Source of the DNA: Caulobacterales bacterium
Lineage (GTDB): Bacteria > Pseudomonadota > Alphaproteobacteria > Caulobacterales > Caulobacteraceae
Length of the DNA stretch: 64,000 nucleotides
Assembly (NCBI GenBank): GCA_038213205.1
Contig: JBBQTP010000001.1
Span: 370-64,369 of the forward strand
Reading direction: 5' to 3'
The position numbers and the translations under genes were made by a program. Below, piece by piece: positions 10,356 through 42,887 of this stretch. Every line of letters begins with the position of its first letter. The first letter of the stretch is position 1. The notes under the pieces are model-generated. The model worked only from the letters and a program-made list of their open reading frames with translations, made no database searches and was not told where the DNA came from.

Positions 10356-10404
10356 GTTCTCGCGAAATCCCGCCAGCCGGCCGGACCGCTTTTCGAGACG
10401 CCCG

Positions 10405-12312: not shown

Positions 12313-12320
12313 GCCCCCTT

Positions 12321-12617: not shown

Positions 12618-12621
12618 AGCC

Positions 12622-12987: not shown

Positions 12988-13003
12988 ACCGGGACCTAGA
13001 CTC

Positions 13004-15169: not shown

Positions 15170-15174
15170 TCCTC

Positions 15175-15639: not shown

Positions 15640-16532
15640 GCACCGCGTCCGCCGTCAGATCGCCACCGTCCGTGAGCGCCCAGCCCTTGGTCGAGGGAGA
15701 GTTCGTCTTCACCGAAAGCGACTTCCGCCAGATCGCCGCCATGGTGCATGGCGACGCCGGCATCGCCTTGCCCGACGCCAAGGCGACCCTGGTCTACTCG
15801 CGCCTGGCCAAGCGCCTGCGCGCGCTAGGCCTGCAGAGCTTCAAGGACTACTGCGCCCTGGTCGCGGGCCATGAAGGCGTCGACGAGCGCCAGCGGATGC
15901 TGGCGGCCCTGACCACCAATGTGACGCGCTTCTTCCGCGAGCCGCATCACTTCGACGACCTGCGCCAGAAGCTGCTGCCGAGCCTGATCGACCGCGCGCG
16001 GTCCGGCGGCAAGATCCGCCTGTGGTCGGCCGCCTGTTCGAGCGGCCAGGAGCCCTATTCCATGGCCATGGCCCTTCTGGCCGCCATGCCTGACGCGGCC
16101 CAGCACGACGTGCGAATCCTGGCCACCGACATCGATCCCAACGTGGTCGCCGAAGGCCGCGAGGGTGTCTACGCCGAAGGCCTGCTGACCGGCGTACCCG
16201 ACGAATACCGCAAGCGCTGGACACGGCCGTCGCGCGCCGCCGGCCACGTGCAGATGGCCGAGGAACTCGGCGAGCTGATCACCTTCCGCGAACTCAACCT
16301 GATCGGCGACTGGCCCATGAAGGGAACCTTCCAGGCGATCTTCTGCCGCAACGTGGCGATTTATTTCGACGACCCCACGCAGCACCGCCTGTGGGGCCGC
16401 TTCGCGCCGCTGCTGTCGGCCAATGGCATGCTCTACATCGGCCACTCTGAACGCGTCGCGGGGCCCGCCGCTGCGGCTTTCGAGCCGGCCGGCATCACCG
16501 CCTACCGTCGCAGCGCGGGGCCAGTCCAATGA
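15636..16532 (+). CDS. cheR: chemoreceptor methyltransferase CheR
   Basis: 298 aa. N-terminal helical domain and SAM fold ([29 protein letters not shown]). ATGA overlap with cheW. Confidence 0.9.
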
Positions 16533-17554
16533 TCCGGGTACTGATCGTCGACGACTCCGCGACCATGCGGAAACTGATCGCCGCGGCGCTGTCCGACTAC
16601 GCGGAGTTCACCGTGGTCGGCGAGGCCGCCGATCCGTTGGAAGCCCGCGAGGCCATCAAGATCTTCAATCCCGACGTCATCACCCTCGACGTCGAAATGC
16701 CGAACATGAACGGCCTCGAGTTCCTCGAGCGGCTGATGCGGCTTCGGCCGATGCCGGTGGTGATGGTCTCGACGCTGACCAGCCGTGGCGCCGAGGCGAC
16801 GCTGGCGGCGCTGGAACTCGGCGCGATCGACTGTGTCTGCAAGCCGACATCCGAGAACCCGCGCACCTTCGACACCCTGCCGGAGAAGGTTCGCGCGGCC
16901 GCCATCGCCCGACCGCGTGGCCCGCAGTGCATCCGCGCTACCGCCGCGGCGCCGGAGGGCGCCTTCGCGCCCAACGGCAAGATCGTAGCGATCGGCTCAT
17001 CCACCGGCGGCGTCGAGGCGTTGCTGTCGATCGTCGGGCGCCTGCCGGCCAACTGTGCGCCGACGGTGATCACCCAGCACATGCCGGGGACCTTCACAAG
17101 GAGCTTCGCCGAGCGCCTGAACCGCGGCTGCGCCGCCGAGGTGAGCGAGGCCCGCGACGGCGATCCACTGATCCCGGGCCATGTTTATCTGGCGCCTGGC
17201 GGGGATAGCCATCTCGAGATCGACGGCTCGGCGACGCTGCGCTGCCGGGTCTCGCCGGGCAGTCCGGTTAGCGGCCACCGGCCCTCCGTGGACGTGCTGT
17301 TCGACTCCGTCGCGCGCACCGCGCGCAGCCGTGCGCTCGGCGTGATCCTCACCGGCATGGGCCGCGACGGGGCCCGCGGGCTGCTGGCGCTGCGCGACGC
17401 CGGCGGCCGCACGCTCGGCCAGGATGAATCGACGTGCGTCGTCTATGGCATGCCGCGCGCTGCCTTCGAGATCGGCGCCGTCGAGCGCCAGCTGCCGCTT
17501 GAGAAGATCGCGTCCGCTATCCGCCAACTGACCAACCGCTCTGGGGAGTCCTGA
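16529..17554 (+). CDS. cheB: chemoreceptor methylesterase/deamidase CheB
   Basis: 341 aa. Receiver ([23 protein letters not shown]) plus esterase (IGSSTGG, HMP, GMGRDG). ATGA overlap with cheR. Confidence 0.9.
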
Positions 17555-17942
17555 TGCCCGTCGCCGCGTCCATTCACTGCCTCATGTCGACGATCAGCAG
17601 ACCATCCGCTCGCTCGTCCGCAGCGGCCTGCAGGAGCTCGGGTTCCGCACCTTCTTCGAAGCCAACGACGGCGAGGAGGGTCTGCGGCAGATGCTCAACA
17701 GGCCGATCCAGCTGGTGATCTCAGACTACAACATGCCCAAGCTGGACGATCTGGGCCTGCTGCGCGCCGTGCGTGCGCACCCGCCGATTCAGAAGACCGC
17801 CTTCATCATGCTGACCGGCCGGGCCGACAAGGACCTAGTCCAGCGGGCCGTGCAGTTCGGGGTCAACAACTATCTCGTCAAGCCGTTCACCGTGGCCACG
17901 CTGCGCGAAAAGATCGAAGCGGTCTTCGGCGCTCTGCAATGA
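17554..17942 (+). pseudogene. cheYII: CheY-like receiver (cheYII position) interrupted by an apparent 1-nt deletion near 17584..17587
   Basis: The ATG at 17554 is coupled to the cheB stop (cTGATG) and reads [16 protein letters not shown]..., stopping at TGA 17716..17718. The receiver sequence HVDDQQTIRSLVRSGLQELGF...QLVISDYNMP...IMLTGR...LVKPF is in the next frame. That frame has no ATG/GTG/TTG between its upstream stop (17529) and the DD motif. The track therefore only finds an 83-aa tail from 17691. Confidence 0.7.
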
Positions 17943-18526
17943 GCCTAGCCGCCGCCGATTTTGAACCGGAGCGAGGCGTGGTCATGGAACCGCGCAAGGT
18001 TCACGTGATCCAGGGGGAGTTCAAGGTCTCCGACGACCCGGACCTGGTGATGACCACGATCCTGGGATCGTGCGTCGCGGCCTGTATGCGCGACCCCGTG
18101 GCCGGCGTTGGCGGCATGAACCACTTCCTGCTGCCCGGCGTCAGCGGCAGCGCCAATCTTCTTGAGGGGGGTCTGCGCTACGGCGTGCAGTCCATGGAGC
18201 TCTTGATGAACGCCCTGCTGCGCCGGGGCGCGCGGCGCGAGCGGCTGGAGGTCAAGCTGTTCGGCGGCGGGCGGCTGATCACCGGCCTGACCGACGTGGG
18301 CTCACAGAACGCGGCGTTCGCCGAGCAGTTCGTCCGCGACGAAGGGCTCGCCCATGCCGGCGGTTCGCTGCGCGGTGATCGCGCCCGGCGCATCCAATAC
18401 TGGCCGGTCAGCGGGCGCGCCCGCCAGGTCTTCCTCGCCGCGGCCGAATCCAAAGTGTTCGCCGCCGAACGGCGCCGGCCCGCCGCGCCGCCGCCGGAAG
18501 ACTCCGGCGCCCTGGAGCTGTTCTAA
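17939..18526 (+). CDS. cheD: chemoreceptor glutamine deamidase CheD
   Basis: 195 aa. VHVIQGEFKVSDDPDLVMTTILGSCVAACMRDPVAGVGGMNHFLLPG. ATGA overlap with the preceding gene. Confidence 0.9.
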   Translation: MSLAAADFEPERGVVMEPRKVHVIQGEFKVSDDPDLVMTTILGSCVAACMRDPVAGVGGMNHFLLPGVSGSANLLEGGLRYGVQSMELLMNALLRRGARRERLEVKLFGGGRLITGLTDVGSQNAAFAEQFVRDEGLAHAGGSLRGDRARRIQYWPVSGRARQVFLAAAESKVFAAERRRPAAPPPEDSGALELF

Positions 18527-18918
18527 TGCCCAATCCTTCCCAGTCGAGCGACGCACCGACTTTTCGCCCGTTCGCCGAGCCGCTGCGGCTGGCGGCCATC
18601 GAACTCGCCGACCTGGCGCGGACCGGCGACCAGCTGCAGCGGGTCATCGCCCGCCTCGCGGCCGGCGCCGGGGCGCTCGACGCGGAGCTGATGGAGGAGG
18701 CCCAGGGCGCAGACCTGCTCAGCCAGCGCCTGGAAGGCATGGCCGCCTTCCTGCGCGCGCTCGCCGACGCGGTTCCGGCCGGCGCGGCCGTCGACGTGCA
18801 CGCCGCGATGATCGACCTGACCCTGGCCGAACAGGCGCGCCGCCTCGCAGGCCCCCCGGCCGCCGTCCCGACGGCCACGGACGAGGCGTCCGGCGACCTG
18901 TTGCTGTTCGGGAGCTGA
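18526..18918 (+). CDS. cheU: chemotaxis-operon protein of unknown function (CheU position in the Caulobacter operon)
   Basis: 130 aa, helical and Ala-rich. Its start overlaps the cheD stop (TAATG). Named by synteny only. Confidence 0.5.
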   Translation: MPNPSQSSDAPTFRPFAEPLRLAAIELADLARTGDQLQRVIARLAAGAGALDAELMEEAQGADLLSQRLEGMAAFLRALADAVPAGAAVDVHAAMIDLTLAEQARRLAGPPAAVPTATDEASGDLLLFGS

Positions 18919-18919
18919 G

Positions 18920-19522
18920 ATGGGCGCCACGCCGTTCAAGGGGCGCGAGCGGGTCAACCTCTCCACCGCCGAGGTGCTGATTGTCTGCGGCGACGCTGAG
19001 GGGCTGGAGATCCTGGCCCAGATGTTCGCCGGCTTCGGCGTGCACACGCCCCGCCGCGCATCGTCCAGCGCCGAAGCGATGGTCGTCGTCGGCGAGCGCG
19101 AGCTGAACCTGGTCGTCGTCGACAGCGCGCTCGCCGATGGCGACGGCTACCCGTTCATCAACTGGCTGCGGCGCTGCGGCTCGCCCAACGCCTGGTCGCC
19201 CGTGGTGCTGGTCACCGGCCACACCACGCCGTCGCAGATCATCAAGGGCCGCAACGCCGGCGCCAGCTTCGTGGTGCGCAAGCCGGTCCCGCCGATGGTG
19301 ATGATGCAGCGCATCGTCTGGCTGCTCAACGATCAGCGCGCTTTCGTCACCTCCGAGGGCTACTGCGGCCCGGACCGCCGGGTTCGCTCGATGGGCCCAC
19401 CCGTCGGCATGAAAGGCCGCCGCCACGACGACCTCTCCGTAGAGGTCGGCGAGGCCACCACCCCCAACCTCGATCAGGGCCAGATCGACGCCCTCTTCCA
19501 GCCCAAGGCGCTCGCCCGATGA
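18920..19522 (+). CDS. cheYIII: CheY-like receiver with degenerate acidic pocket and Arg-rich C-terminal extension (CheYIII / Cle-type)
   Basis: 200 aa. LIVCGDA replaces the LVVDD pocket, while VVVDSA (Asp), LVTGH (Thr) and VRKPV (Lys) are retained. A ~70-aa tail follows, with YCGPDRRVRSMGPPVGMKGRRHDD. Confidence 0.75.
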   Translation: MGATPFKGRERVNLSTAEVLIVCGDAEGLEILAQMFAGFGVHTPRRASSSAEAMVVVGERELNLVVVDSALADGDGYPFINWLRRCGSPNAWSPVVLVTGHTTPSQIIKGRNAGASFVVRKPVPPMVMMQRIVWLLNDQRAFVTSEGYCGPDRRVRSMGPPVGMKGRRHDDLSVEVGEATTPNLDQGQIDALFQPKALAR

Positions 19523-19980
19523 GTCTCCCGCGCGTGTTCAAAGTTGAAAATAAACTGGCCAAGGTTGTCAGCCGGCCCGGCGGCAAGACCATCAAGGAAG
19601 CCCTGCAGTCAGCCGAAACGAACATCGAGTCGGTGCGCGACCAATGCATGACCGCGCTCGAGGAGAAGGCCGGAAACCTGGCTCGGATCGCCGGCGGGGA
19701 TCGCGGCGAGGGCGCGATGGCGACGCTCGACAGGCTCTACGACGTCAGCAACGCGATCTTCGGTGTCGCCGGCGCCTTTGGTCTCGAGGCGCTGGCGGAA
19801 GCAGCCTGCAGCCTCTGCGACGTCATCCACCGCTTCCGCAGCGGGGAATCCGTCAGGTGGTCGGCTGTGGATGTGCACGTGGATGGCATCCGCCTGCTCG
19901 CCGGTGGCCTGACGCGCGGGGCGGACGAGATTCTCGAGGGCCTTCGCAAGGTTCGCGCGCGGTTCGTCCCGGCGACTTGA
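19519..19980 (+). CDS. cheE: chemotaxis-operon protein of unknown function (CheE position)
   Basis: 153 aa. ATGA overlap with the preceding gene. Last gene of the coupled chain. Named by synteny only. Confidence 0.5.
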   Translation: MSLPRVFKVENKLAKVVSRPGGKTIKEALQSAETNIESVRDQCMTALEEKAGNLARIAGGDRGEGAMATLDRLYDVSNAIFGVAGAFGLEALAEAACSLCDVIHRFRSGESVRWSAVDVHVDGIRLLAGGLTRGADEILEGLRKVRARFVPAT

Positions 19981-20397: not shown

Positions 20398-20460
20398 GTC
20401 AGTCCTTTCGGAAGCGGCGCCACACGACTTAGCCGCAGACGGTTAATTGAAATTAAAAAT

Positions 20461-20502
20461 GTGCATTTGCACCTAATGCAAATCGACATATACCATTTGC
20501 AC
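20461..20502. promoter_or_regulatory. candidate MarR operator(s): three TTTGCA-containing half-sites (ATTTGCA, TGCAAAT, ATTTGCA), the first two a perfect palindrome
   Basis: GTGCATTTGCACCTAATGCAAATCGACATATACCATTTGCAC. ATTTGCA-N5-TGCAAAT is a perfect inverted repeat (20465..20483), and a third CATTTGCAC lies at 20494..20502. It sits in an AT-rich island between divergent genes. Confidence 0.45.
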
Positions 20503-20539: not shown

Positions 20540-21100
20540 ATGGCCAAGCCCCGCATCCCGCCCCGTGACTACTCCGTCGACCCGGACGGGGAGTTCCCAC
20601 TGGGGGCGCCGGAGTATTTCTTCTACCTGCTGTTCCAGGCGGCGAGGCAGCGGGACGGTTTCTTCGACAAGGCGCTCAAGCCGGTGAACCTCAACCTTGC
20701 CCAGTGGCGCTCGTTGGCGATCATCCGCCGGCTCGAGGTCTGCACCATGAGTTCGCTGGCCCGCTACAGCACGGTGGAGCGGACCACGCTCACCCGGGCG
20801 GTGGATCAGCTGGTGGCCCGCGGCGTTGTGTCGCGCTGCACGCCCGATCAGGACCGCCGGCAGGTGAACCTGGCGCTCACCGACCTGGGCGAAGTGACCT
20901 ACGGCAAGGCCGTGGCGATCCTCAAGGAGCGCAATCAGTGGGTGCTCGAGGACATCGACCCCGAGCGTCTGCGCGACGCCACCCGGGTGCTGCAGAAAAG
21001 CCTGCGCAAACTGATCGATGACGACGAGCTGGCCCTCGACCTGATCACCTTCGGACGCACGGTTCCGGGCAGCGGAGGCCAAACCGACCTCCAAGGGTGA
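20540..21100 (+). CDS. MarR-family transcriptional regulator
   Basis: 186 aa. LNLAQWRSLAIIRRLEVCTMSSLARYSTVERTTLTRAVDQLVARGVVSRCTPDQDRRQVNLALTDLG is a winged HTH of MarR type. Confidence 0.85.
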   Translation: MAKPRIPPRDYSVDPDGEFPLGAPEYFFYLLFQAARQRDGFFDKALKPVNLNLAQWRSLAIIRRLEVCTMSSLARYSTVERTTLTRAVDQLVARGVVSRCTPDQDRRQVNLALTDLGEVTYGKAVAILKERNQWVLEDIDPERLRDATRVLQKSLRKLIDDDELALDLITFGRTVPGSGGQTDLQG

Positions 21101-21140: not shown

Positions 21141-21192
21141 GAATTCCCACGAATTCCCACTTTTAACGTTGAATTATGGGAACTATGGGAAT
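21141..21192. promoter_or_regulatory. array of two direct GAATTCCCAC and two inverted TATGGGAA repeats flanking TTAA-N7-TTAT
   Basis: GAATTCCCAC GAATTCCCAC TTTTAACGTTGAAT TATGGGAAC TATGGGAAT, 30 nt upstream of the oprB start. Confidence 0.45.
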
Positions 21193-21221: not shown

Positions 21222-22421
21222 ATGCCCAGCTTTCGCCGAATCCAGCTCGCGGTCTTTGCCGCAGCGGCCGCCCTGGCCACGGGCGCCGCCGCCGAACCGC
21301 AGGTGTCTGAGACGCCGGCGGCGCCTACCCCCGCCCTCAGCTATTCGCTGGTCTACACCGCCGACATCACTGGCGTGGTCGCCGGCTCCGGTCCACGCGC
21401 CGGGCGCTACCTCGACAACTTCGACGCCATCGCCGACGTCGATCTGGAGAAGGCCTTCGGCTGGCGCGGCGCGACCGCCCACGCCTATGTGCTGAACAAT
21501 TCGGGCGGGGCGCCAAACGACCTGGCCGGCACCCTGCAGGGCGTCGACAACATCGAGGTGGCCGCCCCACGCCTGCGAATGTTCGAGCTGTGGCTGGAGC
21601 AGGACTTCGGCGGCAAGGCCTCGATCCGCGGCGGGCTCTACAATCTCAACAGCGAGTTCTATTCCAACGAGGCGGCGGGCCAGCTGCTGGCGCCGGCCTT
21701 CGGGATCGGGTCGGAACTGGCCGCCACCGGCCCCAACGGCCCCTCGATCTTCCCGGCGACCTCGCTCGGCCTGCGCGTGAACTTCAATCTCGGCGACGGC
21801 GCCTATGTCCGCGCCGCGGTGCTGAACGCCAAGGCGGGGGTGATGGGTGATCCGCGCGGCGTCGACCTGACGTTCAGCGACGGCGTGCTGGCCATCGCCC
21901 AGGTGGGCGTCGCCGCGCCGATTAAGATGAGCGTCGGGGCCTGGCGCTACAGCCACACCCAGGACGACATCCGCGATGTCGATCCGGCCGGCGCGCCGCA
22001 GCACCGCGTGGCGCAAGGCGTCTACGTCCAGGCCGAGCATCGGGTGTTCGGCGGAGAGGACGGCCGCTCGGGCACGGCCTTCGTGCGCCTCGGCGCCTCG
22101 GACGGTCAGACCACGCCCTTCCACGGCGGCTGGCAGGCCGGCCTGCGCGTCGACAAGCCCTTCGCCGGGCGGCCCGACAGCGTGCTCTCCATAGGCGCTG
22201 AGCAGGGCCTGTTGGACCGCAAGTTCCGCGCCAACCTGCGCGATCAGTTCACCGACCCCAGTCGCGCCGAGACCGGCGTCGAAGTCACCTACTCCGACAA
22301 AGTCGGGTCTCGCGTGACCCTGCAGCCCGACCTGCAGTGGATCCATCATGCCCGCGGCGATCGCGGCATGTCCGACCGCTGGGTCGCGGGCCTGCGGCTG
22401 CGGATCGAGTTGACCAGATGA
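21222..22421 (+). CDS. oprB: carbohydrate-selective porin, OprB family
   Basis: 399 aa with a signal peptide. LVYTADITGVVAG...YLDNFDAIADVDLEKAFGWRGAT...FELWLEQDFGGKASIRGGLYNLNSEF is typical of OprB. Confidence 0.8.
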   Translation: MPSFRRIQLAVFAAAAALATGAAAEPQVSETPAAPTPALSYSLVYTADITGVVAGSGPRAGRYLDNFDAIADVDLEKAFGWRGATAHAYVLNNSGGAPNDLAGTLQGVDNIEVAAPRLRMFELWLEQDFGGKASIRGGLYNLNSEFYSNEAAGQLLAPAFGIGSELAATGPNGPSIFPATSLGLRVNFNLGDGAYVRAAVLNAKAGVMGDPRGVDLTFSDGVLAIAQVGVAAPIKMSVGAWRYSHTQDDIRDVDPAGAPQHRVAQGVYVQAEHRVFGGEDGRSGTAFVRLGASDGQTTPFHGGWQAGLRVDKPFAGRPDSVLSIGAEQGLLDRKFRANLRDQFTDPSRAETGVEVTYSDKVGSRVTLQPDLQWIHHARGDRGMSDRWVAGLRLRIELTR

Positions 22422-24703
22422 TCCCAGGCTGGCGATCGCCCGAGGCGCAGCGAATCCTCGATCCGTTCCAGCGGACGCTGGCTTGGCGCGCGGGCAGCAT
22501 GTGGACCCGCGGCCTGACGGCGACCCTGGTGGCGCTCCTCGCCTGGTTCACGACCGGCAGTTCGCTGGCCGGCCTGTGGCTCGCCGCGGGACTCGTCGCC
22601 GTTGCGATCGACGCTACAGTCAGCCGCCACTTTCTCGGCAAAACCAAGACCCGGGCCGCTGCGGTCCTGACCACGATGGCCTTCACGGTATCGGCGGTGA
22701 CGTTCTCGCTGATCGCGCCCTTGCTGCTCAGCACACCCTCCTCCATCGGCCTGGCGGAGGCGGCGCTGCTGCTCTGCGCCGTCAGCCTCAACAACGCGCT
22801 GATGTCCTGCGGGTCGCGGACCGCCACGGTCGCCCTCGTAGGACCGGCTTCGACAATCCTGATCCTGAGCCCGCTCCTGGCGCGCCTGTTTGGCCTCGCC
22901 ATGCCGGTCGCACATGTCGTGACCCTGGCCTTGGCGGGGGTCATCTTCTCCGTCTTCATTGTTCGTCTGGCCGGTGTGATCAACGCCGAGGGAGTCGCGC
23001 TCGGCGATGCCCTGGACGAGCTCGCCCGCCAGACCGCCACCGCCGAGACGGCCGGCCAGGCGGCGCTGGAGAGTAAGCACCGCCTGCGGCTGATTTTCGA
23101 CCACAGCCCAACCGCGCGGACCTGCTTCAACGCCTCCGCGCTCTACGAACGCTTGCGCGTTGCAAAAGAAGATCCGCCGATCGGCCTGGGCGATGTGCTG
23201 CGCGCGCAGATCACCAGCGTGGCCGATATATTCGCCCACCTCACGGTTCTGGAAACCAATCAGGTCGCCGACGAATTGAGCGGCGACAATATCCGCCGGG
23301 TCCACCTCACCGAGTCTTTTGTCGAGGGGTTCGCGACAGCGCTGAACGCGATCAGCGATGAGGGCGTGCTGCCGGCGTTTCCCGCCGAGCTGATCCGGGG
23401 CGACGGCTCGATCGTCGACATCGAGGTCCATCTGCGCATGTCTTCCTGTGACGGCGAGCCGTGGAGCCTGTGCATGTCGACCTACGTCGATGTCACGACG
23501 GCGCGCCAGGCCGCTCGCGAACAGAAGGCGGCGCTGGAGGCCGCCGAGGTCGCCAATCGGGCCAAGAGCGAATTCCTCGCTGTCATCAGCCACGAGATCC
23601 GCACCCCGCTGAACGGGGTGCTGGGCATGGCGCAGGCGATGGCGCTGAGCCCGCTACCCCGCGTGCAGCGTGAACGCCTGCGGGTGCTGGGCGAGAGCGG
23701 CGAGGCGCTGCTGGCGATCGTCGACGACCTGTTGGATCTGGCGCGGATCGAGGCCGGCGGCCTGCAGCTGGTCAGCGCTGACTTCGACCTGCCGGCGGTG
23801 CTGGAGAGCGTCCGCTCTGCCTATTCCGCCGAGGCCGCCCGCAAGGGTCTCACTTTCAGCCTGGCGATCGATCCGCGCGCCGCCGGTCGCTACCGCGGCG
23901 ATGCAGGGCGCTTGCGCCAGATCATCAGCGCCCTGGTCTCCAACGCGCTGAAGTTCACCCATCGGGGCGAGGTGTCCGTCAGCCTGTTGAGCACGCCGCG
24001 CGGCGTTCGGTGCGAAGTGCGTGACAGCGGCATCGGCATCGACGCCGATCGCATCCCCACGCTGTTCGAGAAATTCGTCCAGGCCGATTCTTCGATGACC
24101 CGCCGCTACGGCGGCGCCGGCCTGGGCCTGGCGCTCTGCCAGAAACTCTCCAAGGCCATGGGCGGCGAGATTCTGGTCGAGAGCGCGCCGGGCGCCGGCA
24201 GCACCTTTGCGCTGACGCTGCCCCTGCCGGTCTGCGGCGTCACGGCGGCCGATGCGCGCGAAGAGATGGCCGCGGCGGCGGAGCGGCAGGTACGTGTTTT
24301 GGCCGCCGAGGATAATCCCGTGAATCAGATGGTGCTGCGCGCGCTGCTGGGTCAGATCGGCCTGGAGCCGACCATTGTCGCCAACGGCATCGAGGCGCTG
24401 GCCGCCTGGGAAGCCGGCGACTGGGACCTGATCCTGATGGACGTCCAGATGCCGCTGATGGATGGCCTCAGCGCGACTCAGGCCATCCGCGCGCGTGAGG
24501 CGGAGCTGGGCCGCACCGCGGTGCCGATCATCGCGGTAACCGCCAACGCCATGATCCACCAGGTGGCGAGCTACCGCGCCGCGGGGATGACGGGAGTGAT
24601 CTCCAAACCTATCGACGTCGAGGCGCTGTTCTCGGCGATGATCGCGGCCATCGCGCGCGGCGAGCCGCCGGAAAGCTCGGAGCTGTCTGTCGCCACCGGT
24701 TGA
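22418..24703 (+). CDS. membrane-bound hybrid sensor histidine kinase / receiver
   Basis: Start MIPGWRSPEAQ (ATG 22418), overlapping the oprB stop as ATGA. It has ~6 TM helices, a HisKA domain (FLAVISHEIRTPLNGVLGM), a HATPase domain ([22 protein letters not shown]) and a receiver (VLAAEDNPVNQ, LILMDVQMPLMDG, SKP). Confidence 0.9.
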   Translation: MIPGWRSPEAQRILDPFQRTLAWRAGSMWTRGLTATLVALLAWFTTGSSLAGLWLAAGLVAVAIDATVSRHFLGKTKTRAAAVLTTMAFTVSAVTFSLIAPLLLSTPSSIGLAEAALLLCAVSLNNALMSCGSRTATVALVGPASTILILSPLLARLFGLAMPVAHVVTLALAGVIFSVFIVRLAGVINAEGVALGDALDELARQTATAETAGQAALESKHRLRLIFDHSPTARTCFNASALYERLRVAKEDPPIGLGDVLRAQITSVADIFAHLTVLETNQVADELSGDNIRRVHLTESFVEGFATALNAISDEGVLPAFPAELIRGDGSIVDIEVHLRMSSCDGEPWSLCMSTYVDVTTARQAAREQKAALEAAEVANRAKSEFLAVISHEIRTPLNGVLGMAQAMALSPLPRVQRERLRVLGESGEALLAIVDDLLDLARIEAGGLQLVSADFDLPAVLESVRSAYSAEAARKGLTFSLAIDPRAAGRYRGDAGRLRQIISALVSNALKFTHRGEVSVSLLSTPRGVRCEVRDSGIGIDADRIPTLFEKFVQADSSMTRRYGGAGLGLALCQKLSKAMGGEILVESAPGAGSTFALTLPLPVCGVTAADAREEMAAAAERQVRVLAAEDNPVNQMVLRALLGQIGLEPTIVANGIEALAAWEAGDWDLILMDVQMPLMDGLSATQAIRAREAELGRTAVPIIAVTANAMIHQVASYRAAGMTGVISKPIDVEALFSAMIAAIARGEPPESSELSVATG

Positions 24704-26646
24704 TCGCCGAACAGGTCGGCCAGCTTCCGCGCCAGGTCGCCGCGGCGATAGGGTTTGCCGAGGAACGCCGCCTCGCCCTCCAGACGCAGCGCCTGGATGG
24801 TCGGCTCGTCGGTGTGGCCCGAGGTGAACAGGATCGGCAGTTGCGGATAGAGTTGCCGCGCCTGGTCGGCCAGTTGGCGCCCGTTCAGGCCGCCGGGCAT
24901 GACGATGTCGGTCATCAGCAGGTCGATGTCGCTCGTCGCATGCAGCCGGCGCAATGCGTCGTGGCCGTTGCGGTGAGCGGTGACCCGGCAGCCCAGCGAG
25001 ATCAACTGACGCTGCACCTGGTCGCGCAGCAGGTCGTCGTCCTCCACCAGCAGCACATGACGCGGCTGTGTCAGCAGCTGCGTGGGCGCGGCGGCCCGCG
25101 CCGTGGTTTCAGCACGCGCGGTCAGCGGCAAGTAGATGCTCATCCTTGAGCCGCGGCGGGGTTCGCTATCGATCTCCAGACGCCCGCCCGACTGGCCGGC
25201 GAAGCCGTGCACCATCGACAGGCCAAGGCCCGAACCCTGGCCCTCGGGCTTGGTGGTGAAGAAGGGCTCCAGCGCGCGGGCGCGGGTCTGGGCCGACATG
25301 CCTTCGCCGGTGTCGGCGACGCTCAGAACGACGAAGGCGTCATCGACGCTGTCGCGCGCGGCGCGCAGCGTCAGACGCCCGCCGCCCGGCATGGCGTCGC
25401 GCGCGTTGATCGCAAGGTTGAGCATTGCCGAAGTCAACTGGGTGGGATCGGCCAGGCAGCGCAGGTCAGGCTCGGGTGTCTCCAACACGATCTCGATATC
25501 GCTATTGATCGTGCGGCCCAGGATCGGCGCGAGGCCGGCGAGGAAGCTGGCACAGTCAACCGCCTGGGGCGCGAGCGGTTGAGTGCGCGCCGAGGCCAAC
25601 AGCCGGCTCACCAGCTCGGCGCCGCGCTCGGCGGCGTCCAGCCCAAGGTTCGCCACCGACTGCAGGTCAGGCCGGTCGGCCAGGGCATCGACCAGGGTCT
25701 CGTTCGACCCGATCACCACGGTCAGCAGGTTGTTGAAGTCGTGCGCGATGCCGCCGGTCAGCCGGCCGATCGCCTCCAATTTTTGCGCCTGGCGCAGCTT
25801 TTCTTCCGCCGCCATGTGCTCGCGCATGTCGCGCGCGATGCCGATGACGCTGTCCTGCGACCCCGAGCGCACCGCCGACCACATCAGCGGGACGTGGCTG
25901 CCGTCCTTGTGGATGTAGCGGTTGAGGAAGTTCTTGGTCGGCAGGCCGGCGAAGATGCTGGCCGCTGCAGCGCGGGTCGCGGCCTGGTCCTCGGGGTGAA
26001 CGAAGTCGGCGTAGCTGCGCCCGATCAGTTCCTGCGGCCGGTAGCCCCAGACCAGTTCGGCGTGGCGGTTTACGTGTTTGAACATGCCGTTGCCGTCGAA
26101 CACGCAGATCGCGTCGTGCGAACTGTCGAACATCGCCTGGCCCTCCTCGAGCGTGGCCTTCAGCCGCTCACGGCTGGCGCGCAGGGCGTCGTTGGCGAGC
26201 TTCTCGTTGGTCACTTCGTGGCCCTGGCAGAACACGCCGTAGACCAGGCCGCCGGCTTCGCGCAGGGGCTGCAGCACGAAGTCGGCGAAGGCTTCCTCGT
26301 CGGGGCTTCCGGGATAGCGCGTAACGGCCAGCTTGGCGTTGCGGAGCACCTTGGGCTGGCCGCTGGCATAGACCTCATCCAGCAGCGCGCCGAAACCGCG
26401 CGAATAGCCGCGGCGAAGGCCGACACGGGCGGGCTTGCCGACGATGCTCTCGTCCAGGCCCGACAACTTCAGATAGGCCGGGTTGGCCATTTGCACGACG
26501 TGGTCCGCGCCGAAGAACACCACCATGCAGCCGGGCGCCTGGTCGAACAGTTCGCGGATGCGGCGCACCTCCTCGGCCAGCTGTCGCGAGGTGCGGCCTG
26601 GCGTCGCGGCGGCAGGGGTGGAGACGGGGGGAAGTGGCGGAATCAC
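24571..26646 (-). CDS. soluble PAS-PAS hybrid histidine kinase / receiver (CckA-like H-box)
   Basis: 691 aa with a GTG start and no TM. It has two PAS modules, the H-box LTGGIAHDFNNLLTVVIG, N/G1/F/G2 boxes (LNLAINARDAM, DTGEGM, EPFFTTK, GSGLGLS) and a receiver (LLVEDDD, LLMTDIVMPG, GKPY). Its 3' end overlaps the convergent kinase gene by 133 nt. Confidence 0.9.
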   Translation of the reverse strand: MIPPLPPVSTPAAATPGRTSRQLAEEVRRIRELFDQAPGCMVVFFGADHVVQMANPAYLKLSGLDESIVGKPARVGLRRGYSRGFGALLDEVYASGQPKVLRNAKLAVTRYPGSPDEEAFADFVLQPLREAGGLVYGVFCQGHEVTNEKLANDALRASRERLKATLEEGQAMFDSSHDAICVFDGNGMFKHVNRHAELVWGYRPQELIGRSYADFVHPEDQAATRAAAASIFAGLPTKNFLNRYIHKDGSHVPLMWSAVRSGSQDSVIGIARDMREHMAAEEKLRQAQKLEAIGRLTGGIAHDFNNLLTVVIGSNETLVDALADRPDLQSVANLGLDAAERGAELVSRLLASARTQPLAPQAVDCASFLAGLAPILGRTINSDIEIVLETPEPDLRCLADPTQLTSAMLNLAINARDAMPGGGRLTLRAARDSVDDAFVVLSVADTGEGMSAQTRARALEPFFTTKPEGQGSGLGLSMVHGFAGQSGGRLEIDSEPRRGSRMSIYLPLTARAETTARAAAPTQLLTQPRHVLLVEDDDLLRDQVQRQLISLGCRVTAHRNGHDALRRLHATSDIDLLMTDIVMPGGLNGRQLADQARQLYPQLPILFTSGHTDEPTIQALRLEGEAAFLGKPYRRGDLARKLADLFGDQPVATDSSELSGGSPRAMAAIIAENSASTSIGLEITPVIPAAR

Positions 26647-26726
26647 AGGTGGCCTCGCGCATCGGTGGACTTGATTTCCGGGGGCGTTGGGCGGCTGATC
26701 GAGGCGGATCGGATCTTGGGGGGCAG

Positions 26727-27776
26727 ATGTCCCAGTTGGGACGCAGCGCCGGCTTGACCGGCTTTCTCGAACTCGCGCGCGAAGCGGGCGCCGATCCCTA
26801 CGCGCTCGCCAGGGCCGCGCGTGTGCCGCGCGAGGCGCTCACCGATCCGGATATGCGCGTCGGCTCGGCGTCGATGTCGCGGTTGATTGAAATGGCGGCG
26901 ACGCGGCCTGGCCTTGCAGACATTGGCCTGTGCATGGTCGAGAAGCGCCGCCTTTCGACCATGGGCGCCATGGGTCTCGCGATCCGCGAACAGCCGACCC
27001 TGCGCAAAGCGCTGGAACTGATCCATCAGTATGCCTGGCTGCAGAACGAAGCGCTGTCCGTCGGCTTGGAGGAAATCGAAGATGTCGCCCTGCTTCGCAT
27101 CGGCATGCCGGCCTGGCGCGGCCGGCAGGGTAGTGAGCTGACCACCGGCATCGTTTTTCGGGTCATCCAGGCAGTTGCGGGCCACGGCTGGCGGCCGCTT
27201 GAGGTCCGCTTCATGCACGCCGCACCGGCCAATCTCGACGCGCACCGCCGGCTGTTCGGAAAGATCCCGCTGTTTGATCAGGATTTCGTCGGCATGGTGC
27301 TCAGCGGCGCCGACCTGGACCGGCCGATCGGCGCCAACGACCCGGAGATGGCCAAGATGATATCGGGCTATATCGCCCATATCGCTCAGGGCCGCGGCCG
27401 TCCCGGCCTGGTCGACCAGGTGCGGCAGATGATCCTGTCCTTGCTGCCGGCGGGCGGCTGCACGGTGGATCGGGTGGCCCAGCGGATGGCCATGGACCGG
27501 CGGACCCTGCACCGCCGGCTTGCGGCCGAAGACACCTCCTTCACGGAGTTGTTGAACGCGACGCGCGTCGACCTGGCCGTTTCGCTGCTGACCCATAGCG
27601 AGCGCCCGTTGCAGAGCGTGGCCGACATGCTGGGCTTCGCCAGCCTCAGCGCCTTCGCCCATTGGTTTCGGCGCAACTTCGAGTGTACCGCCAGCGCCTA
27701 TCGCGGGACCCGAAGCGCGCCGGCCGCTCACGCCGCGGCCTTGATCGACGTCTCGTCGGGATCGCGCATCACGTAG
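26727..27776 (+). CDS. AraC-family transcriptional regulator (arabinose-binding-domain-2 type)
   Basis: Start [24 protein letters not shown]. The C-terminus has two HTH motifs: [19 protein letters not shown]...[22 protein letters not shown]. Confidence 0.85.
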
Positions 27777-28429
27777 CCGCCCCCCCATACCGTTTCGATG
27801 TGCTGCTTGCCGCCCGAGGCCTTGGTGAGCTTCTGGCGCAGCTTGCAGATGAACACGTCGATGATCTTGGCGCCGGGCTCGTCCATGCCGCCGTAGAGGT
27901 TGGTCAGGAACACGTCCTTGCAGAGCGTCTTGCCGCGGCGAAGCGCCAGCAGCTCGAGCGTCTGATATTCCTTGCCGGTCAGGTGAACCCGCTCGCCGCT
28001 TACATGCACGATCTTGGCGTCCAGGTTCAGGCTGACGTCGCCGATGGTGATGGTGGAATCGGCGTGACCGGCCGAGCGGCGGATCACCGCGCGCAGCCGT
28101 GCGACCAGTTCGTCCTTGTGGCAGGGCTTGACCATGTAGTCGTCGGCGCCGGCGGCCAGAGCGGCCACCTTGCCGGTGACGTCGGCGGCGCCCGACAGGA
28201 TCAGCACCGGCGTCTTGATCTTGGCGCGGCGCAGCGAGCGCAGCACCTCCATGCCGCTCATGTCCTCCAGGCCGAGGTCCAGCAACACCGCGTCATACTC
28301 ATACGACTTGGCGAGGCCGTCGCCGTCTTCGCCAAGGTCGGTCGTCTCGACCTTGAAGCCCGCGGTGTTGAGCATCATCTCGAGGCTGCGGGCGGTGGTG
28401 CGGTCGTCTTCGATCAGCAGAATGCGCAT
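27728..28429 (-). CDS. OmpR-family response regulator, CtrA-like (probable CtrA paralogue)
   Basis: 233 aa. [110 protein letters not shown], and it ends ...IKAAA. GGAGA RBS. It overlaps the AraC 3' end by 49 nt. Confidence 0.85.
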
Positions 28430-28514: not shown

Positions 28515-29297
28515 CTAGCGGGCGTGAGCCAGGCTGGTCTGGGGTTCGAAATCCAAAGCGTCGGCGGCGGGTGGCCGGTCGAGGACCACGCGCGCGGCGG
28601 TGATCAGCGAGGACATCCGGAAGGGCTTGGCCAGCACCTCGTCGGCCCCCAGCTCGCTGGCCCATTCGAGGAAATTGGAACTGCGCCCATATTGGCCACC
28701 GCCGGAAATGGCGATGACCTTGGTGTCTGGCGTTGAGCGCCGGGCTTCCAGGATGGCGCCGATGCCTTCCATCTCCGGCATGACGATGTCGGTCACCATC
28801 AGGTCGGGCTTCAGCCGCTGCAGCATCTGGACGCCCATGCGACCGTTGCGGGCGCAGAACGTCTGGTAGCCCTCGCGGTTGAAGGCGGCGGCCAGCAGGG
28901 TTAGCAAGCCAGGATCGTCTTCGACCAGCAGCACGCGCAGGCCGTTCCCGTTGGCCGGGCGCGGCAGGGTCAGAGCCCCTTCGCCCGAGACCGGCTCGGC
29001 CTGGACCAGGTCGGCCTGAACCAGGTCGGCGGCCAGGCCCACCGCGCGGTCGGCGGCCAGCGCCCCGATGCGGGCGAGCTCGGCGTGCGTCGGGCTGTCT
29101 TTGAGGTTATCGGCCAGGGATTCACAGACACCGATAATGACGGCGAGCAGATCCTTGAGGTCGCGGGCCGGAGTCGTCTGCGGGCAGGCGTCAACGGCGG
29201 CCGGATCGAGGGCGTAGTGGGTCTTTGAAATTGGGAGATCGCTAAAACTTTGATGCATTTTTGGCATGGTTTCGCATGAGTTTTCGTTTGCGACCAC
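28515..29297 (-). CDS. His-less DHp-like domain fused to a receiver domain (no ATPase domain)
   Basis: 260 aa; the start is uncertain (GTG 29297, ATG 29267 or 29258). [50 protein letters not shown] aligns with the neighbouring kinase's AHDFNNLLTVVIGSNETLVDALADRPDLQSVANLGLDAAERGAELVSRLL, with His replaced by Arg. An intact receiver follows ([31 protein letters not shown]). Confidence 0.8.
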
Positions 29298-29427
29298 CCG
29301 GTGGAAGAGCTATGGAGCTTGCGGTCCGCGGCTCAGCCCCGAGGGGGTGATTCGTCGTTTCGCCTATAGGGTTAACGGCGCTTGAGCTTGTTTCTGAGGG
29401 ACAGAAACTTGCTTCTTCGGGACAATC

Positions 29428-29435
29428 TTAACCAT
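29428..29435. promoter_or_regulatory. exact TTAACCAT octamer (CtrA half-site type) in the promoter region of the DHp-REC / CtrA-like operon
   Basis: caatcTTAACCATccgac, ~130 nt upstream of the 28515..29297 gene in a lower-GC intergenic stretch. Nearby are GTTAAC (29371) and the inverted repeat GTTTCTG-N5-CAGAAAC (29390..29408). Confidence 0.3.
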
Positions 29436-42854: not shown

Positions 42855-42887
42855 CAGTCCCTTGCGCGGCCGGACTTGTCGAGACGC

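What the first reader, a model, noticed from the sequence alone, without database searches (positions are those of the whole stretch)
27728..28429. Divergent CtrA-like regulator that keeps the CtrA DNA-reading head and an Ala-Ala C-terminus
**Retained CtrA features.** The product is collinear with CtrA as I remember it from C. crescentus and S. meliloti. The following blocks are present:
- MRxLLIEDD and TTDLGE(E/D)G
- GADDYMxKPxHKDE
- [35 protein letters not shown]
- [24 protein letters not shown]
- HIETVWGxGYVxRDP

It ends in ...KAAA. CtrA proteolysis by ClpXP depends on its terminal Ala-Ala.

**Diverged parts.** The receiver surface helices ([51 protein letters not shown]) are far more diverged than CtrA orthologues usually are, even between alphaproteobacterial orders. 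The KPFHKDE motif reads KPCHKDE.

**Interpretation.** A conserved DNA-binding head with a rewired receiver suggests a paralogue able to read TTAA-N7-TTAA-type boxes under different phospho-control.
Basis: partly seen in the sequence, partly recalled or inferred. Interest (0 to 1): 0.65.

Follow-up and report, generated by a model that had tools for sequence, protein, structure and literature searches.

The report
CtrA paralogue with its own phosphorelay
This gene encodes a second, diverged copy of CtrA, the alphaproteobacterial cell-cycle master regulator. It sits in a conserved signalling gene cluster beside the chemotaxis operon of Phenylobacterium-like bacteria, so CtrA-type promoters there can probably be driven from a separate input.

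Summary
Window 27728-28429, minus strand, is a 233-aa OmpR-family response regulator. It is collinear with CtrA, ends in KAAA and reads KPCHKDE.

It is not the CtrA orthologue. It scores 332 bits on NCBI's CtrA equivalog model (cut-off 350). Canonical CtrAs from four orders score 390-427, and relatives of this protein score 318-349. It belongs to a separate family of about 94 clusters at 90% identity. That family is excluded from the canonical CtrA clade in 475 of 500 bootstraps.

One Phenylobacterium MAG (DATAUR01) carries both a canonical ctrA at the usual locus and a member of this family, and the two are 68.5% identical.

The recognition helix matches canonical CtrA apart from two positions that vary. 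The wing Arg is Gly, and two residues of receiver helix alpha-1 are changed.

In about 24 loci the gene sits in one conserved module:
- a DHp-receiver protein upstream
- a convergent AraC-type regulator
- a CckA-like PAS hybrid kinase and a second hybrid kinase
- marR and the che operon

The module's promoters carry conserved CtrA-type motifs. The operon promoter has TTAACC[ACT]T in 24 of 24 loci.

Function, DNA target and phosphodonor are inferred, not shown. I found no description of this family in the papers I could search.

The parts
27728..28429 (-). ctrA-like gene. 233-aa OmpR-family response regulator of the 'G-wing' CtrA paralogue family. Phospho-acceptor D51, K101, recognition helix [14 protein letters not shown], wing WGGGY, C-terminus KAAA.
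   Evidence: dN/dS is 0.12-0.17 against its closest relatives.
28515..29297 (-). Partner gene directly upstream on the same strand. It encodes a DHp (HisKA-like helical hairpin) plus a CpdR/Spo0F-like receiver, with no catalytic ATPase domain. The H-box His is Arg here (PARDLKDLL). The database gene call starts at the ATG at 29258 (247 aa).
29347..29435 (-). Promoter region of the partner/ctrA-like operon. It holds an inverted TTAACCAT (29428-29435) and two direct repeats TGTCCC[GT]-N6-CAAG (29408-29424 and 29387-29403, 21-bp period). These are followed by TTAACCCT (29368-29375) and, 17 nt further on, AATCAC (29347-29352).
   Evidence: The same architecture is present in 24 of 24 non-redundant loci. 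TTAACCHT occurs only here in the 64 kb (2 found, 0.40 expected).
26634..27776 (+). AraC-family regulator (Arabinose_bd domain plus HTH_18; closest named model QhpR). It is convergent with ctrA-like and overlaps its 3' end by 49 bp.
   Evidence: Conserved position in loci L001, L006, L007, L086, L088, L191, L193 and metagenome loci.
24571..26646 (-). PAS-HisKA-HATPase-REC hybrid histidine kinase. Its best named matches are the CckA models, below their cut-offs. The start codon is uncertain.
   Evidence: Conserved about 1.8 kb downstream of ctrA-like in roughly 20 loci.
22337..24703 (+). Second hybrid histidine kinase (HisKA-HATPase-REC, TorS/BarA-like core). The start codon is uncertain; the homologue in L001 is called at 604 aa.
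21141..21177 (+). Composite promoter element upstream of the oprB-like gene: GAATTCCCAC GAATTCCCAC TT TTAACGTTGAATTAT. It has two 10-bp direct repeats followed by a CtrA-like box with one mismatch.
   Evidence: Conserved in 8 non-redundant loci.
21222..22421 (+). OprB-like porin gene, downstream of the composite element.
   Evidence: The homologue in L001 carries Pfam OprB. Synteny.
20540..21100 (+). MarR-family regulator gene.
   Evidence: Synteny.
20443..20472 (+). Divergent marR / orf20050 promoter. It holds a CtrA-like box TTAATTGAAATTAAA (one mismatch) next to the palindrome GTGCATTTGCAC.
10292..10340 (+). che-operon promoter carrying the same composite element: GAATTCCCAA ... GAATTTCCCAC AA TTAACCCATAATTCA.
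10348..19980 (+). Caulobacter-type chemotaxis operon (MCP, STAS/CheX, CheY, CheA, CheW, CheR, CheB, CheY, CheD, unknown, CheYIII-like receiver, unknown). Its 3' end adjoins the module in most loci.

Best explanation
**What it is.** The gene encodes a functional paralogue of CtrA, not the CtrA orthologue. It belongs to a distinct, fast-evolving family of CtrA-like regulators. Every named source is Phenylobacterium, Caulobacterales or an unclassified alphaproteobacterium.

**The module.** The gene is part of a conserved signalling module made of:
- an operon of a DHp-receiver protein and the CtrA-like regulator
- a convergent AraC-type regulator
- a CckA-like PAS hybrid kinase
- a second hybrid kinase
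- marR and an oprB-like porin gene
- the neighbouring che operon

**Shown here.**
- Family separation from canonical CtrA.
- Co-occurrence with a canonical ctrA in one MAG.
- The conserved gene neighbourhood.
- Retention of the phospho-acceptor residues, the CtrA recognition helix and the terminal Ala-Ala.
- Purifying selection on the gene.
- Conserved CtrA-type sequence motifs in the module's promoters.

**Inferred mechanism.**
1. The AraC-type regulator, bound to two 17-bp direct repeats with a 21-bp period, together with a CtrA-family protein bound to the TTAACC[AC]T at the -35 position, switches on the operon.
2. The module's own kinases phosphorylate the regulator at D51. The changed receiver helix alpha-1 (S10R, Q14R) insulates it from the essential CckA-ChpT pathway. 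The DHp-receiver protein acts as phosphotransfer partner or as modulator.
3. The regulator binds TTAA-type sites and controls the oprB/kinase, marR and che-operon promoters.
4. ClpXP removes it through the terminal Ala-Ala.
For: **Identity as a paralogue**
- CtrA equivalog NF045991: query 332 bits, five relatives 318-349 bits, canonical CtrAs of four orders 390-427 bits, cut-off 350.
- PGAP names the canonical Phenylobacterium proteins 'CtrA' but these only 'response regulator transcription factor'.
- 94 of the 120 best clusters share the G-wing, and most of these also the other family signature states.
- Twelve positions separate the two families.
- Canonical CtrAs form a clade that excludes the family in 475 of 500 bootstraps.
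- Canonical ctrA in Phenylobacterium lies in a fliI-fliJ ... ctrA - M28 peptidase - ArsC locus. This gene lies elsewhere.
- MAG DATAUR01 holds both copies.
- P. zucineum CtrA is 93% identical to C. crescentus CtrA and complements it (PMC2529317).

**Function retained**
- dN/dS is 0.12-0.17.
- D8, D9, D51, S79 and K101 are present.
- 12 of the 14 recognition-helix positions (188-201) are conserved and identical in both families; 190 and 199 are not.
- Nearly all family members end in AA. In C. crescentus, changing these alanines to Asp stabilises CtrA (PMC4433202).

**Module**
- Synteny; domains.
- The kinase's best named matches are the CckA models. The partner receiver's best match is CpdR.
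- The partner's N-terminus is 38% identical to the kinase's DHp (E 7e-7). AlphaFold2 models it as a confident helical hairpin. Pfam HisKA is on record for some members.

**Cis elements**
- Operon promoter.
- oprB and che promoters.
- Control: 69 of 80 canonical ctrA loci have a CtrA box within 300 nt upstream.
- Motif definitions, and the rule that activating sites lie near -35, come from PMC6180460.
Against: - No experiment supports any functional step.
- Same-genome co-occurrence rests on one MAG, which could be a mixed bin. It was not checked in the window's own genome.
- The wing Arg of canonical CtrA is Gly in the whole family and the transactivation loop differs (E186G). DNA affinity or specificity, or the RNA polymerase contact, may therefore have changed.
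- The conserved TTAA-type motifs could be bound by canonical CtrA alone.
- The operon promoter has only the ungapped 8-mer, not a full TTAA-N7-TTAA site.
- No Hpt domain is encoded in the module, although both kinases are hybrid.
- The partner's H-box His is lost in about half of the family, including the window. The phosphate route is therefore unclear.
- The AraC-site assignment rests only on repeat geometry.
Confidence: 0.7

Rival explanations
1. The paralogue has been neo-functionalised at the DNA level. It no longer reads CtrA boxes but another direct repeat, for example the 10-bp-spaced AATTCCCAC repeats in the oprB and che promoters. The neighbouring TTAA motifs would then belong to canonical CtrA.
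For: - R217G in the wing, E142H, S162A, T167K, E172D and E186G are fixed differences in the DNA-binding domain.
- AATT(T)CCCA[CA] occurs only four times in 64 kb, always in these two promoters. It is conserved in 8 loci.
- Tandem direct repeats with a 10-11 bp period are the usual site type of OmpR-family regulators (established knowledge).
Against: - The recognition helix, the main base-reading element of OmpR/PhoB-type domains, matches canonical CtrA at 12 of 14 positions; the other two vary.
- The operon's own promoter has TTAACC[ACT]T in 24 of 24 loci but no AATTCCCAC repeat.
Confidence: 0.17
2. The protein is a competitor or antagonist of CtrA. It occupies CtrA boxes but cannot activate transcription, because the transactivation loop and the wing are altered. 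It would damp or re-time the CtrA regulon.
For: - The recognition helix is retained while the alpha2-alpha3 loop changes from DEPELK to DEPGAK and the wing changes R217G.
- The terminal AA is retained, which suggests controlled turnover.
Against: - A TTAACC[ACT]T at the -35 position of its own operon, and boxes just upstream of the oprB and che genes, fit activation rather than repression (PMC6180460).
- The loop change is conservative in length, and its effect on RNA polymerase contact is unknown.
Confidence: 0.08
3. It is simply the only CtrA of a divergent lineage, a fast-evolving orthologue, and the window's genome has no second copy.
For: - CtrA is its best family match by a wide margin: 332 bits against 178 for the next family.
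- JGI annotations call relatives 'CtrA'.
- The window's full genome could not be inspected.
Against: - A family member co-occurs with a canonical ctrA in MAG DATAUR01.
- The family is found in Phenylobacterium, a genus whose canonical CtrA is 93% identical to that of C. crescentus.
- The locus differs from the canonical one.
- The window's CheA, CheW and CheY are about 91% identical to those of a Phenylobacterium MAG. Its CtrA-like protein is only 64-67% identical to Caulobacteraceae CtrA.
Confidence: 0.04
4. It is a decaying duplicate with no function.
For: It is much more diverged than CtrA orthologues are. The F-to-C change in KPF and the His-to-Arg change in the partner could be read as decay.
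Against: - dN/dS is 0.12-0.17.
- The reading frame is intact, with third-position GC of 0.91.
- 103 positions are conserved in both families.
- About 94 clusters share conserved synteny and promoter architecture.
Confidence: 0.01

Closest known systems
Canonical CtrA (C. crescentus, P. zucineum, S. meliloti): cell-cycle master response regulator of the OmpR family
   Same: - Same length and collinear two-domain architecture.
- Phospho-acceptor residues present.
- 12 of 14 recognition-helix positions identical in both families.
- 103 positions conserved in both families.
- Terminal Ala-Ala.
- CtrA is the best family match: 332 bits, next family 178.
   Different: - 63-67% identity to Caulobacterales and Hyphomicrobiales CtrAs and 57-60% to the Azospirillum and Rhizorhabdus copies, while canonical CtrAs of different orders are 71-85% identical to each other.
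- Below the equivalog cut-off.
- Twelve fixed family differences, including S10R and Q14R (receiver alpha-1), I112L/H113R/V116I (alpha-5), E186G (transactivation loop) and R217G (wing).
- Not at the fliI-fliJ-ctrA locus.
- Co-exists with a canonical copy.
CckA-ChpT-CtrA/CpdR phosphorelay (the system as a whole)
   Same: The module contains a CckA-like PAS hybrid kinase, a CpdR-like receiver and a CtrA-like regulator. It looks like a duplicated, compacted version of that relay.
   Different: - No ChpT-like protein and no Hpt domain.
- The CpdR-like receiver is fused to a CckA-type DHp hairpin whose His is often lost.
- An AraC-type regulator and a second hybrid kinase are added.
- All matches to the CckA and CpdR models are far below their cut-offs.
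Extra plasmid-borne ctrA copies (Methylobacterium, Sphingomonadaceae, Mesorhizobium plasmids)
   Same: They are second CtrA-type genes in genomes that are expected to have a chromosomal ctrA.
   Different: - The plasmid copies are canonical in sequence. They have WGRGY, and the Rhizorhabdus copy scores 390 bits, above the cut-off.
- They are annotated as CtrA.
- They lack the DHp-receiver, AraC and hybrid-kinase module.
DivL, the pseudo-histidine kinase of the canonical CtrA pathway with Tyr in place of the phospho-His (established knowledge)
   Same: The partner protein keeps a well conserved DHp but has lost the His in about half of its family (R, E or D). That suggests a binding or modulating role rather than a phosphotransfer role, as for DivL.
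   Different: The partner has no ATPase domain and no PAS domains, carries a receiver domain, and is not homologous to DivL beyond the DHp fold. The analogy is one of logic only and was not tested.
PmrA/BasR and other OmpR-family regulators
   Same: Same fold and domain order. BasR is the best full-length match among solved structures, at E 8e-38.
   Different: They are much more distant: 178 bits against 332 for the CtrA model, and the recognition helix is unrelated (alignment).

Membership tests
OmpR/PhoB-family response regulators | N-terminal receiver domain plus C-terminal winged-helix Trans_reg_C domain, with phospho-acceptor Asp and conserved Ser/Thr and Lys | tested here: met
   Pfam PF00072 (3-112, E 4e-25) and PF00486 (145-221, E 4e-18). 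D8, D9, D51, S79 and K101 are present.
CtrA (orthologous group, NCBIfam NF045991 equivalog) | Score at or above the curated equivalog cut-off (350 bits) | tested here: not met
   The query scores 332.4 bits. Five relatives score 318-349 and five canonical CtrAs score 390-427.
CtrA (orthologous group) | Branches inside the clade of canonical CtrAs | tested here: not met
   In a neighbour-joining tree of 80 sequences, the canonical CtrAs of Caulobacterales, Hyphomicrobiales, Rhodospirillales and a sphingomonad form a clade that excludes the family in 475 of 500 bootstraps. Only a distance method was used, with a single distant outgroup.
CtrA (orthologous group) | Conserved genomic position (fliI-fliJ ... 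ctrA in Caulobacteraceae and Azospirillum; fliJ-ctrA-RR-chpT in S. meliloti) | tested here: not met
   The query lies between a DHp-receiver gene and an AraC gene near the che operon.
CtrA (orthologous group) | Single CtrA-type gene of the genome (no canonical copy elsewhere) | tested here: inconclusive
   This could not be checked in the window's own genome; the window holds no second copy. In MAG DATAUR01 a family member and a canonical ctrA co-occur.
CtrA (functional features) | CtrA recognition helix ([14 protein letters not shown]) | tested here: met
   The query has [14 protein letters not shown]. Positions 188, 189, 191-198, 200 and 201 are conserved and identical in 115 canonical and 90 family sequences.
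CtrA (functional features) | Wing motif WGRGY with its Arg | tested here: not met
   WGGGY. Position 217 is R in 100% of canonical sequences and G in 100% of family sequences.
CtrA (functional features) | C-terminal Ala-Ala needed for ClpXP degradation in C. crescentus | tested here: met
   The sequence feature is present (KAAA), and nearly all family members end in AA. Its role in degradation was not tested. The literature basis is PMC4433202.
CtrA (functional features) | Binds TTAA-N7-TTAA / TTAACCAT | not testable with these tools
   Support is indirect only: conserved CtrA-type motifs in the module's promoters.
CtrA (functional features) | Phosphorylated by CckA through ChpT | not testable with these tools
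   The family-specific changes S10R and Q14R in receiver helix alpha-1, and dedicated kinases next door, suggest a different donor. This is inference.

The most novel reading that the evidence does not exclude
Phenylobacterium-type Caulobacteraceae run a second, insulated CtrA-type phosphorelay. It consists of a CckA-like PAS hybrid kinase, a second hybrid kinase, a DHp-receiver protein that is often His-less and acts as pseudo-phosphotransferase or modulator, and a CtrA-like regulator. An AraC-type small-molecule sensor switches the relay on. The relay feeds an environmental signal into CtrA-box promoters, including the chemotaxis operon. Two regulators with the same recognition helix would then share or compete for the master regulator's sites.
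Probability: 0.35. Interest if true: 0.75.

Novelty: new variant of a known kind. Interest (0 to 1): 0.6.

Why it matters
CtrA is the paradigm of an essential cell-cycle master regulator. Its pathway (CckA-ChpT-CtrA/CpdR) is a textbook case of how two-component systems are kept insulated from one another.

A conserved second CtrA-type regulator in close relatives of Caulobacter raises direct, testable questions:
- It keeps the recognition helix but changes the docking helix, the wing and the transactivation loop.
- It comes with its own CckA-like kinase and its own CpdR-like partner.
- How are two regulators with one DNA-reading helix kept apart, or made to cooperate?
- How does a duplicated phosphorelay become insulated?
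- Can environmental input reach CtrA-controlled motility and chemotaxis genes without touching the essential pathway?

There is also a practical point for annotation. KEGG/JGI pipelines label these proteins 'CtrA'. That label will mislead regulon and orthology analyses.

Tried and rejected
1. **Linking a canonical ctrA to the window's organism through its source metagenome.** The window is held almost completely by one sediment metagenome run (X1, 0.97 of words). Laying X1 contigs on a canonical Phenylobacterium ctrA locus gave hundreds of fragments from many alphaproteobacteria. The window's depth there is only about 9, so no linkage was possible and I dropped this approach.
2. **Genome scan with the family alignment.** It returned 78 canonical ctrA loci and only 2 family loci, and not the window's genome.
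3. **Finding sequencing runs of the isolate Phenylobacterium sp. CCH12-B4** to test for a canonical copy.
4. **Exact-protein look-ups to match assemblies.** Seven look-ups found no shared assembly. The look-up of P0025 then did. Strain CCH9-H3 has a canonical ctrA and strain CCH12-B4 has the module, but I could not show both in one isolate.
5. **RNA evidence for the promoter.** No RNA run holds the stretch.
6. **Simple sigma-70 consensus scan of the promoter region.** It found nothing. That is unsurprising for an activator-dependent alphaproteobacterial promoter.
7. **Foldseek on the partner's model.** It returned only receiver-domain matches, with Spo0F first, and said nothing about the N-terminal hairpin.
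8. **GroEL/GroES guess.** I took ORFs 41220-43160 for GroEL/GroES as a taxonomic marker. They are an OppA-type binding protein and an unknown gene. The window holds no housekeeping marker.
9. **Literature searches** for a CtrA paralogue, CtrA2 or a second CtrA found nothing relevant.
10. **A Biopython bootstrap** timed out. I replaced it with a numpy implementation.
Full report
**1. The observation**

The coordinates 27728-28429 bound an ORF exactly, but it lies on the minus strand (ATG start, 233 aa). Its third-position GC is 0.91 in a window of 67.9% GC, which marks a true coding frame. Pfam finds a receiver domain (3-112) and a Trans_reg_C winged-helix domain (145-221).

I aligned the protein with an annotated S. 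meliloti CtrA (fetched as L002), with Azospirillum, Rhizorhabdus and Methylobacterium CtrA copies and with Caulobacteraceae CtrA sequences. The protein ends in KAAA, and KPF reads KPC.

**2. It is CtrA-like but not the CtrA orthologue**

- *Model score.* NCBI's CtrA equivalog model is by far the best family match, at 332 bits against 178 for the next, PmrA. The score is below the curated cut-off of 350. The gap is systematic. Canonical CtrAs of Phenylobacterium, Sinorhizobium, Azospirillum and a Rhizorhabdus plasmid score 390-427 bits. Five relatives of the query score 318-349.
- *A separate family.* In the 5.8-billion-protein search the nearest relatives are 95, 92 and 91% identical, and the rest 78% or less. 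Of the best 120 clusters, 94 carry WGGGY in place of WGRGY, and most of these also share the other derived states. These are EDDR..ARS for [19 protein letters not shown] for [21 protein letters not shown] for EYQMLELLSLR and DEPG(A/G)K for DEPELK.
- *Fixed differences.* I compared 115 canonical and 90 family sequences. Twelve positions are fixed differently: S10R, Q14R, Y28E, I112L, H113R, V116I, E142H, S162A, T167K, E172D, E186G and R217G. Another 103 positions are conserved and identical in both groups.
- *Tree.* In a neighbour-joining analysis the canonical CtrAs of four orders form a clade that excludes the family in 475 of 500 bootstraps.
- *Identity.* The query is 63-67% identical to Caulobacterales and Hyphomicrobiales CtrAs and 57-60% to the Azospirillum and Rhizorhabdus copies. 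Canonical Phenylobacterium CtrA is 85% identical to S. meliloti CtrA and 71% to Azospirillum CtrA.
- *By domain.* The query's receiver is 64% and its DNA-binding half 70% identical to canonical Phenylobacterium CtrA. The corresponding figures between Phenylobacterium and Sinorhizobium are 83% and 88%. Both domains have diverged, the receiver only slightly more.

**3. Evidence that it is a second copy**

- *Named sources.* The named sources of the family are Phenylobacterium sp., Caulobacterales bacterium and unclassified alphaproteobacterial MAGs. PGAP names these proteins only 'response regulator transcription factor'. It names the canonical Phenylobacterium proteins 'CtrA' (a 1374-member cluster).
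- *Canonical locus.* Canonical ctrA of Phenylobacterium lies in a fixed locus: fliI, fliJ, sometimes a short-chain dehydrogenase gene, ctrA, M28 peptidase, ArsC. P. zucineum CtrA is 93% identical to C. crescentus CtrA and complements a ctrA mutant (PMC2529317).
- *Decisive pair.* P0025, 74% identical to the query and in the same gene neighbourhood, is encoded on contig DATAUR010000031.1 of assembly GCA_036268175.1. Contig DATAUR010000070.1 of the same assembly (Phenylobacterium sp. SMAG_U5577) carries a canonical ctrA, and an M28 peptidase gene and ArsC lie 4.6-7 kb downstream. The two proteins are 68.5% identical and both contig pieces have 70% GC.
- *Caveats.* This is a metagenome bin, so a mixed bin cannot be excluded. 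The window's own genome could not be inspected. The window comes from a sediment metagenome and holds no second OmpR-family gene.
- *Likely organism.* It is probably a Phenylobacterium-like member of the Caulobacteraceae. CheA, CheW and CheY are about 91% identical to those of a Phenylobacterium MAG. The closest named homologues of the partner protein are all from Phenylobacterium.
- *Under selection.* dN/dS against the two closest relatives is 0.12 and 0.17.

**4. The gene is part of a conserved module**

In the window the order on the minus strand is:
- promoter
- DHp-receiver gene (28515-29297)
- an 85-bp gap
- ctrA-like (27728-28429)

An AraC-family gene (26634-27776) converges on ctrA-like and overlaps it by 49 bp. 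Next come:
- a PAS-HisKA-HATPase-REC hybrid kinase (24571-26646)
- a second hybrid kinase (22337-24703)
- an oprB-like porin gene
- marR
- a small ORF
- the 3' end of a complete Caulobacter-type che operon (10348-19980)

The same arrangement, in whole or in its core (DHp-receiver, ctrA-like, AraC), is found in:
- a 92%-identical MAG
- Phenylobacterium sp. RI_411 and a Kiruna MAG
- the isolate Phenylobacterium sp. CCH12-B4
- further MAGs
- about 20 metagenome contigs retrieved with the family-specific peptide IETVWGGG

More distant WGGGY proteins, at 48-58% identity, lack this context.

The PAS kinase's best named matches are the Brucella and Caulobacter CckA models, at 253 and 219 bits, far below their cut-offs. 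The partner's receiver is closest to the CpdR model and, by structure, to Spo0F. The module therefore looks like a duplicated, compacted CtrA relay without ChpT.

**5. The partner protein**

- Residues 44-99 are 38% identical to the DHp/H-box segment of the neighbouring PAS kinase (E 7e-7).
- AlphaFold2 with 57 homologues models two long helices (30-51 and 56-86; pLDDT about 90-96), followed by a disordered linker and a receiver domain.
- Pfam HisKA is on record for some members.
- The residue at the phospho-His position is Arg in the window. Among 120 homologue clusters it is R in 56, H in 46, E in 5 and D in 1. Among 20 module loci it is H in 13 and R in 7.
- The receiver's Asp is kept in 118 of 120.

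A DHp that is strongly conserved but often lacks its His argues for a docking or modulating role rather than obligatory phosphotransfer. This is inference.

**6. Cis elements**

*Motifs used.* CtrA sites are TTAA-N7-TTAA, the ungapped TTAACCAT and TTAA half-sites, and activating sites lie near -35 (PMC6180460).

*Control.* 69 of 80 canonical ctrA loci have such a site within 300 nt upstream. Caulobacteraceae have TTAACCAGTCTTAAA at about -100.

*The partner/ctrA-like operon promoter.* Upstream of the operon, 24 of 24 non-redundant loci share one architecture:
- two direct repeats, consensus TGTCCCG-N6-CAAG, 21 bp apart
- about 10 bp further on, TTAACC[ACT]T
- 17-20 bp further on, (C)GAATCA

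In the window these lie at 29408-29424, 29387-29403, 29368-29375 and 29347-29352, with a further inverted TTAACCAT at 29428-29435. TTAACCHT occurs nowhere else in the 64 kb (2 found, 0.40 expected).

The 17-bp two-part repeats at a 21-bp period, next to the -35 position, have the geometry usual for AraC/XylS-type activators (established knowledge). I assign them to the adjacent AraC-type regulator by inference only.

*The other promoters.* The window has three TTAA-N7-TTAA sites with one mismatch (0.48 expected, 0 of 100 shuffles reach 3). All three are in promoters of this gene neighbourhood:
- *Upstream of the che operon (10326-10340).*
- *In the divergent marR promoter (20443-20457).* It lies beside a GTGCATTTGCAC palindrome.
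- *Upstream of the oprB-like gene (21163-21177).*

The last two are conserved in position in distant loci.

The che and oprB promoters share a composite element: AATT(T)CCCA[CA] repeats followed by TTAAC-N6-AATT[AC]. The repeat occurs only in these two promoters in the whole window. The shuffles do not model the AT-richness of intergenic DNA, so the conservation across loci is the stronger argument.

**7. Mechanism proposed**

- *Shown.* A distinct, selected paralogue family. A conserved module. The retained phospho-acceptor residues, recognition helix and terminal Ala-Ala. Conserved CtrA-type motifs in the module's promoters.
- *Inferred.*
  1. The operon is switched on by the AraC-type regulator together with a CtrA-family protein at the -35 8-mer. 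That protein is either canonical CtrA, which would give cell-cycle gating, or the paralogue itself, which would give positive feedback as at ctrA P2.
  2. The paralogue is phosphorylated through the module's own kinases and is insulated from ChpT by the S10R and Q14R changes in the docking helix.
  3. It binds TTAA-type sites in the oprB/kinase, marR and che promoters.
  4. It is degraded by ClpXP through its terminal Ala-Ala (PMC4433202).
- *Open.* The route of the phosphate is unclear, since both kinases are hybrid, no Hpt domain is present and the partner is often His-less. The effects of R217G and E186G are unknown, as is what binds the AATTCCCAC repeats.

**8. Comparison with what is known, and novelty**

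The closest known protein is canonical CtrA. The protein works most like CtrA but fails the tests for membership of the orthologous group: equivalog score, clade, locus and wing motif.

Extra ctrA copies on Methylobacterium, sphingomonad and Mesorhizobium plasmids are a different matter. They are canonical in sequence and lack the module.

Full-text searches for a CtrA paralogue, a second CtrA or CtrA2, and for CtrA together with Phenylobacterium, found no description of this family. The search covers open-access papers and bioRxiv only.

I rate it a new variant of a known kind, with interest 0.6.

Noticed in passing
window 10348-19980 (+): A complete chemotaxis operon in the gene order of the major C. 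crescentus che cluster: MCP, STAS/CheX, CheY, CheA, CheW, CheR, CheB, CheY, CheD, unknown, CheYIII-like receiver, unknown. CheA, CheW and CheY are about 91% identical to those of a Phenylobacterium MAG.
   Followed up: partly
window 10293-10323 and 21142-21160: The motif AATT(T)CCCA[CA] occurs four times in 64 kb, only in the che-operon and oprB promoters. Each time it lies just upstream of a TTAAC-N6-AATT[AC] box (3 exact AATTCCCAM found, 0.18 expected). What binds it is unknown.
   Followed up: partly
window 20461-20472: The palindrome GTGCATTTGCAC lies in the marR / orf20050 divergent promoter. It is conserved in loci L001, L086, L007, L115 and L152 and is probably the MarR operator.
   Followed up: no
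window 28515-29297 (-); homologues P0151-P0270: This is a family of DHp-plus-receiver proteins without an ATPase domain. The H-box His is replaced by Arg, Glu or Asp in about half of the members (R 56, H 46, E 5, D 1), while the rest of the DHp stays highly conserved.
   Followed up: partly
window 27728-27776 and 24571-24703: There are two convergent gene overlaps. The AraC gene and ctrA-like overlap by 49 bp, as also in L001. The two hybrid-kinase ORFs overlap by 133 bp as listed, though their start and stop assignments are uncertain.
   Followed up: no
window 1659-6475 (-): CusA-type (AcrB family, 1049 aa) and CusB-type (HlyD_D23, CusF and heavy-metal-binding domains) efflux genes. Unrelated to the finding.
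   Followed up: no
plasmid records H1-H23 (e.g. L004 Rhizorhabdus wittichii pSWIT01, L005 Methylobacterium radiotolerans pMRAD01): Canonical-type ctrA copies sit on small and large plasmids of Methylobacterium, sphingomonads and Mesorhizobium. Some lie next to integrase or RES-domain genes.
   Followed up: partly
window 29341-29346 and equivalent positions in 24 loci: Directly downstream of the conserved (C)GAATCA element, every locus has a C-run/G-run inverted repeat (CACCCCCTCGGGG in the window). It could form a hairpin at the start of the transcript.
   Followed up: no
P0004, P0050, P0086: A few database proteins combine a canonical-type N-terminus (DSATA) with the G-wing or other family states. 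They may be assembly chimeras or true intermediates.
   Followed up: no
loci L112, L127, L139, L142-L146, L151, L153, L155, L160, L167-L172, L177, L178: A more distant set of OmpR-family proteins also carries IETVWGGG but is only 48-58% identical to the query and lacks the module. It may be a third CtrA-related family.
   Followed up: no
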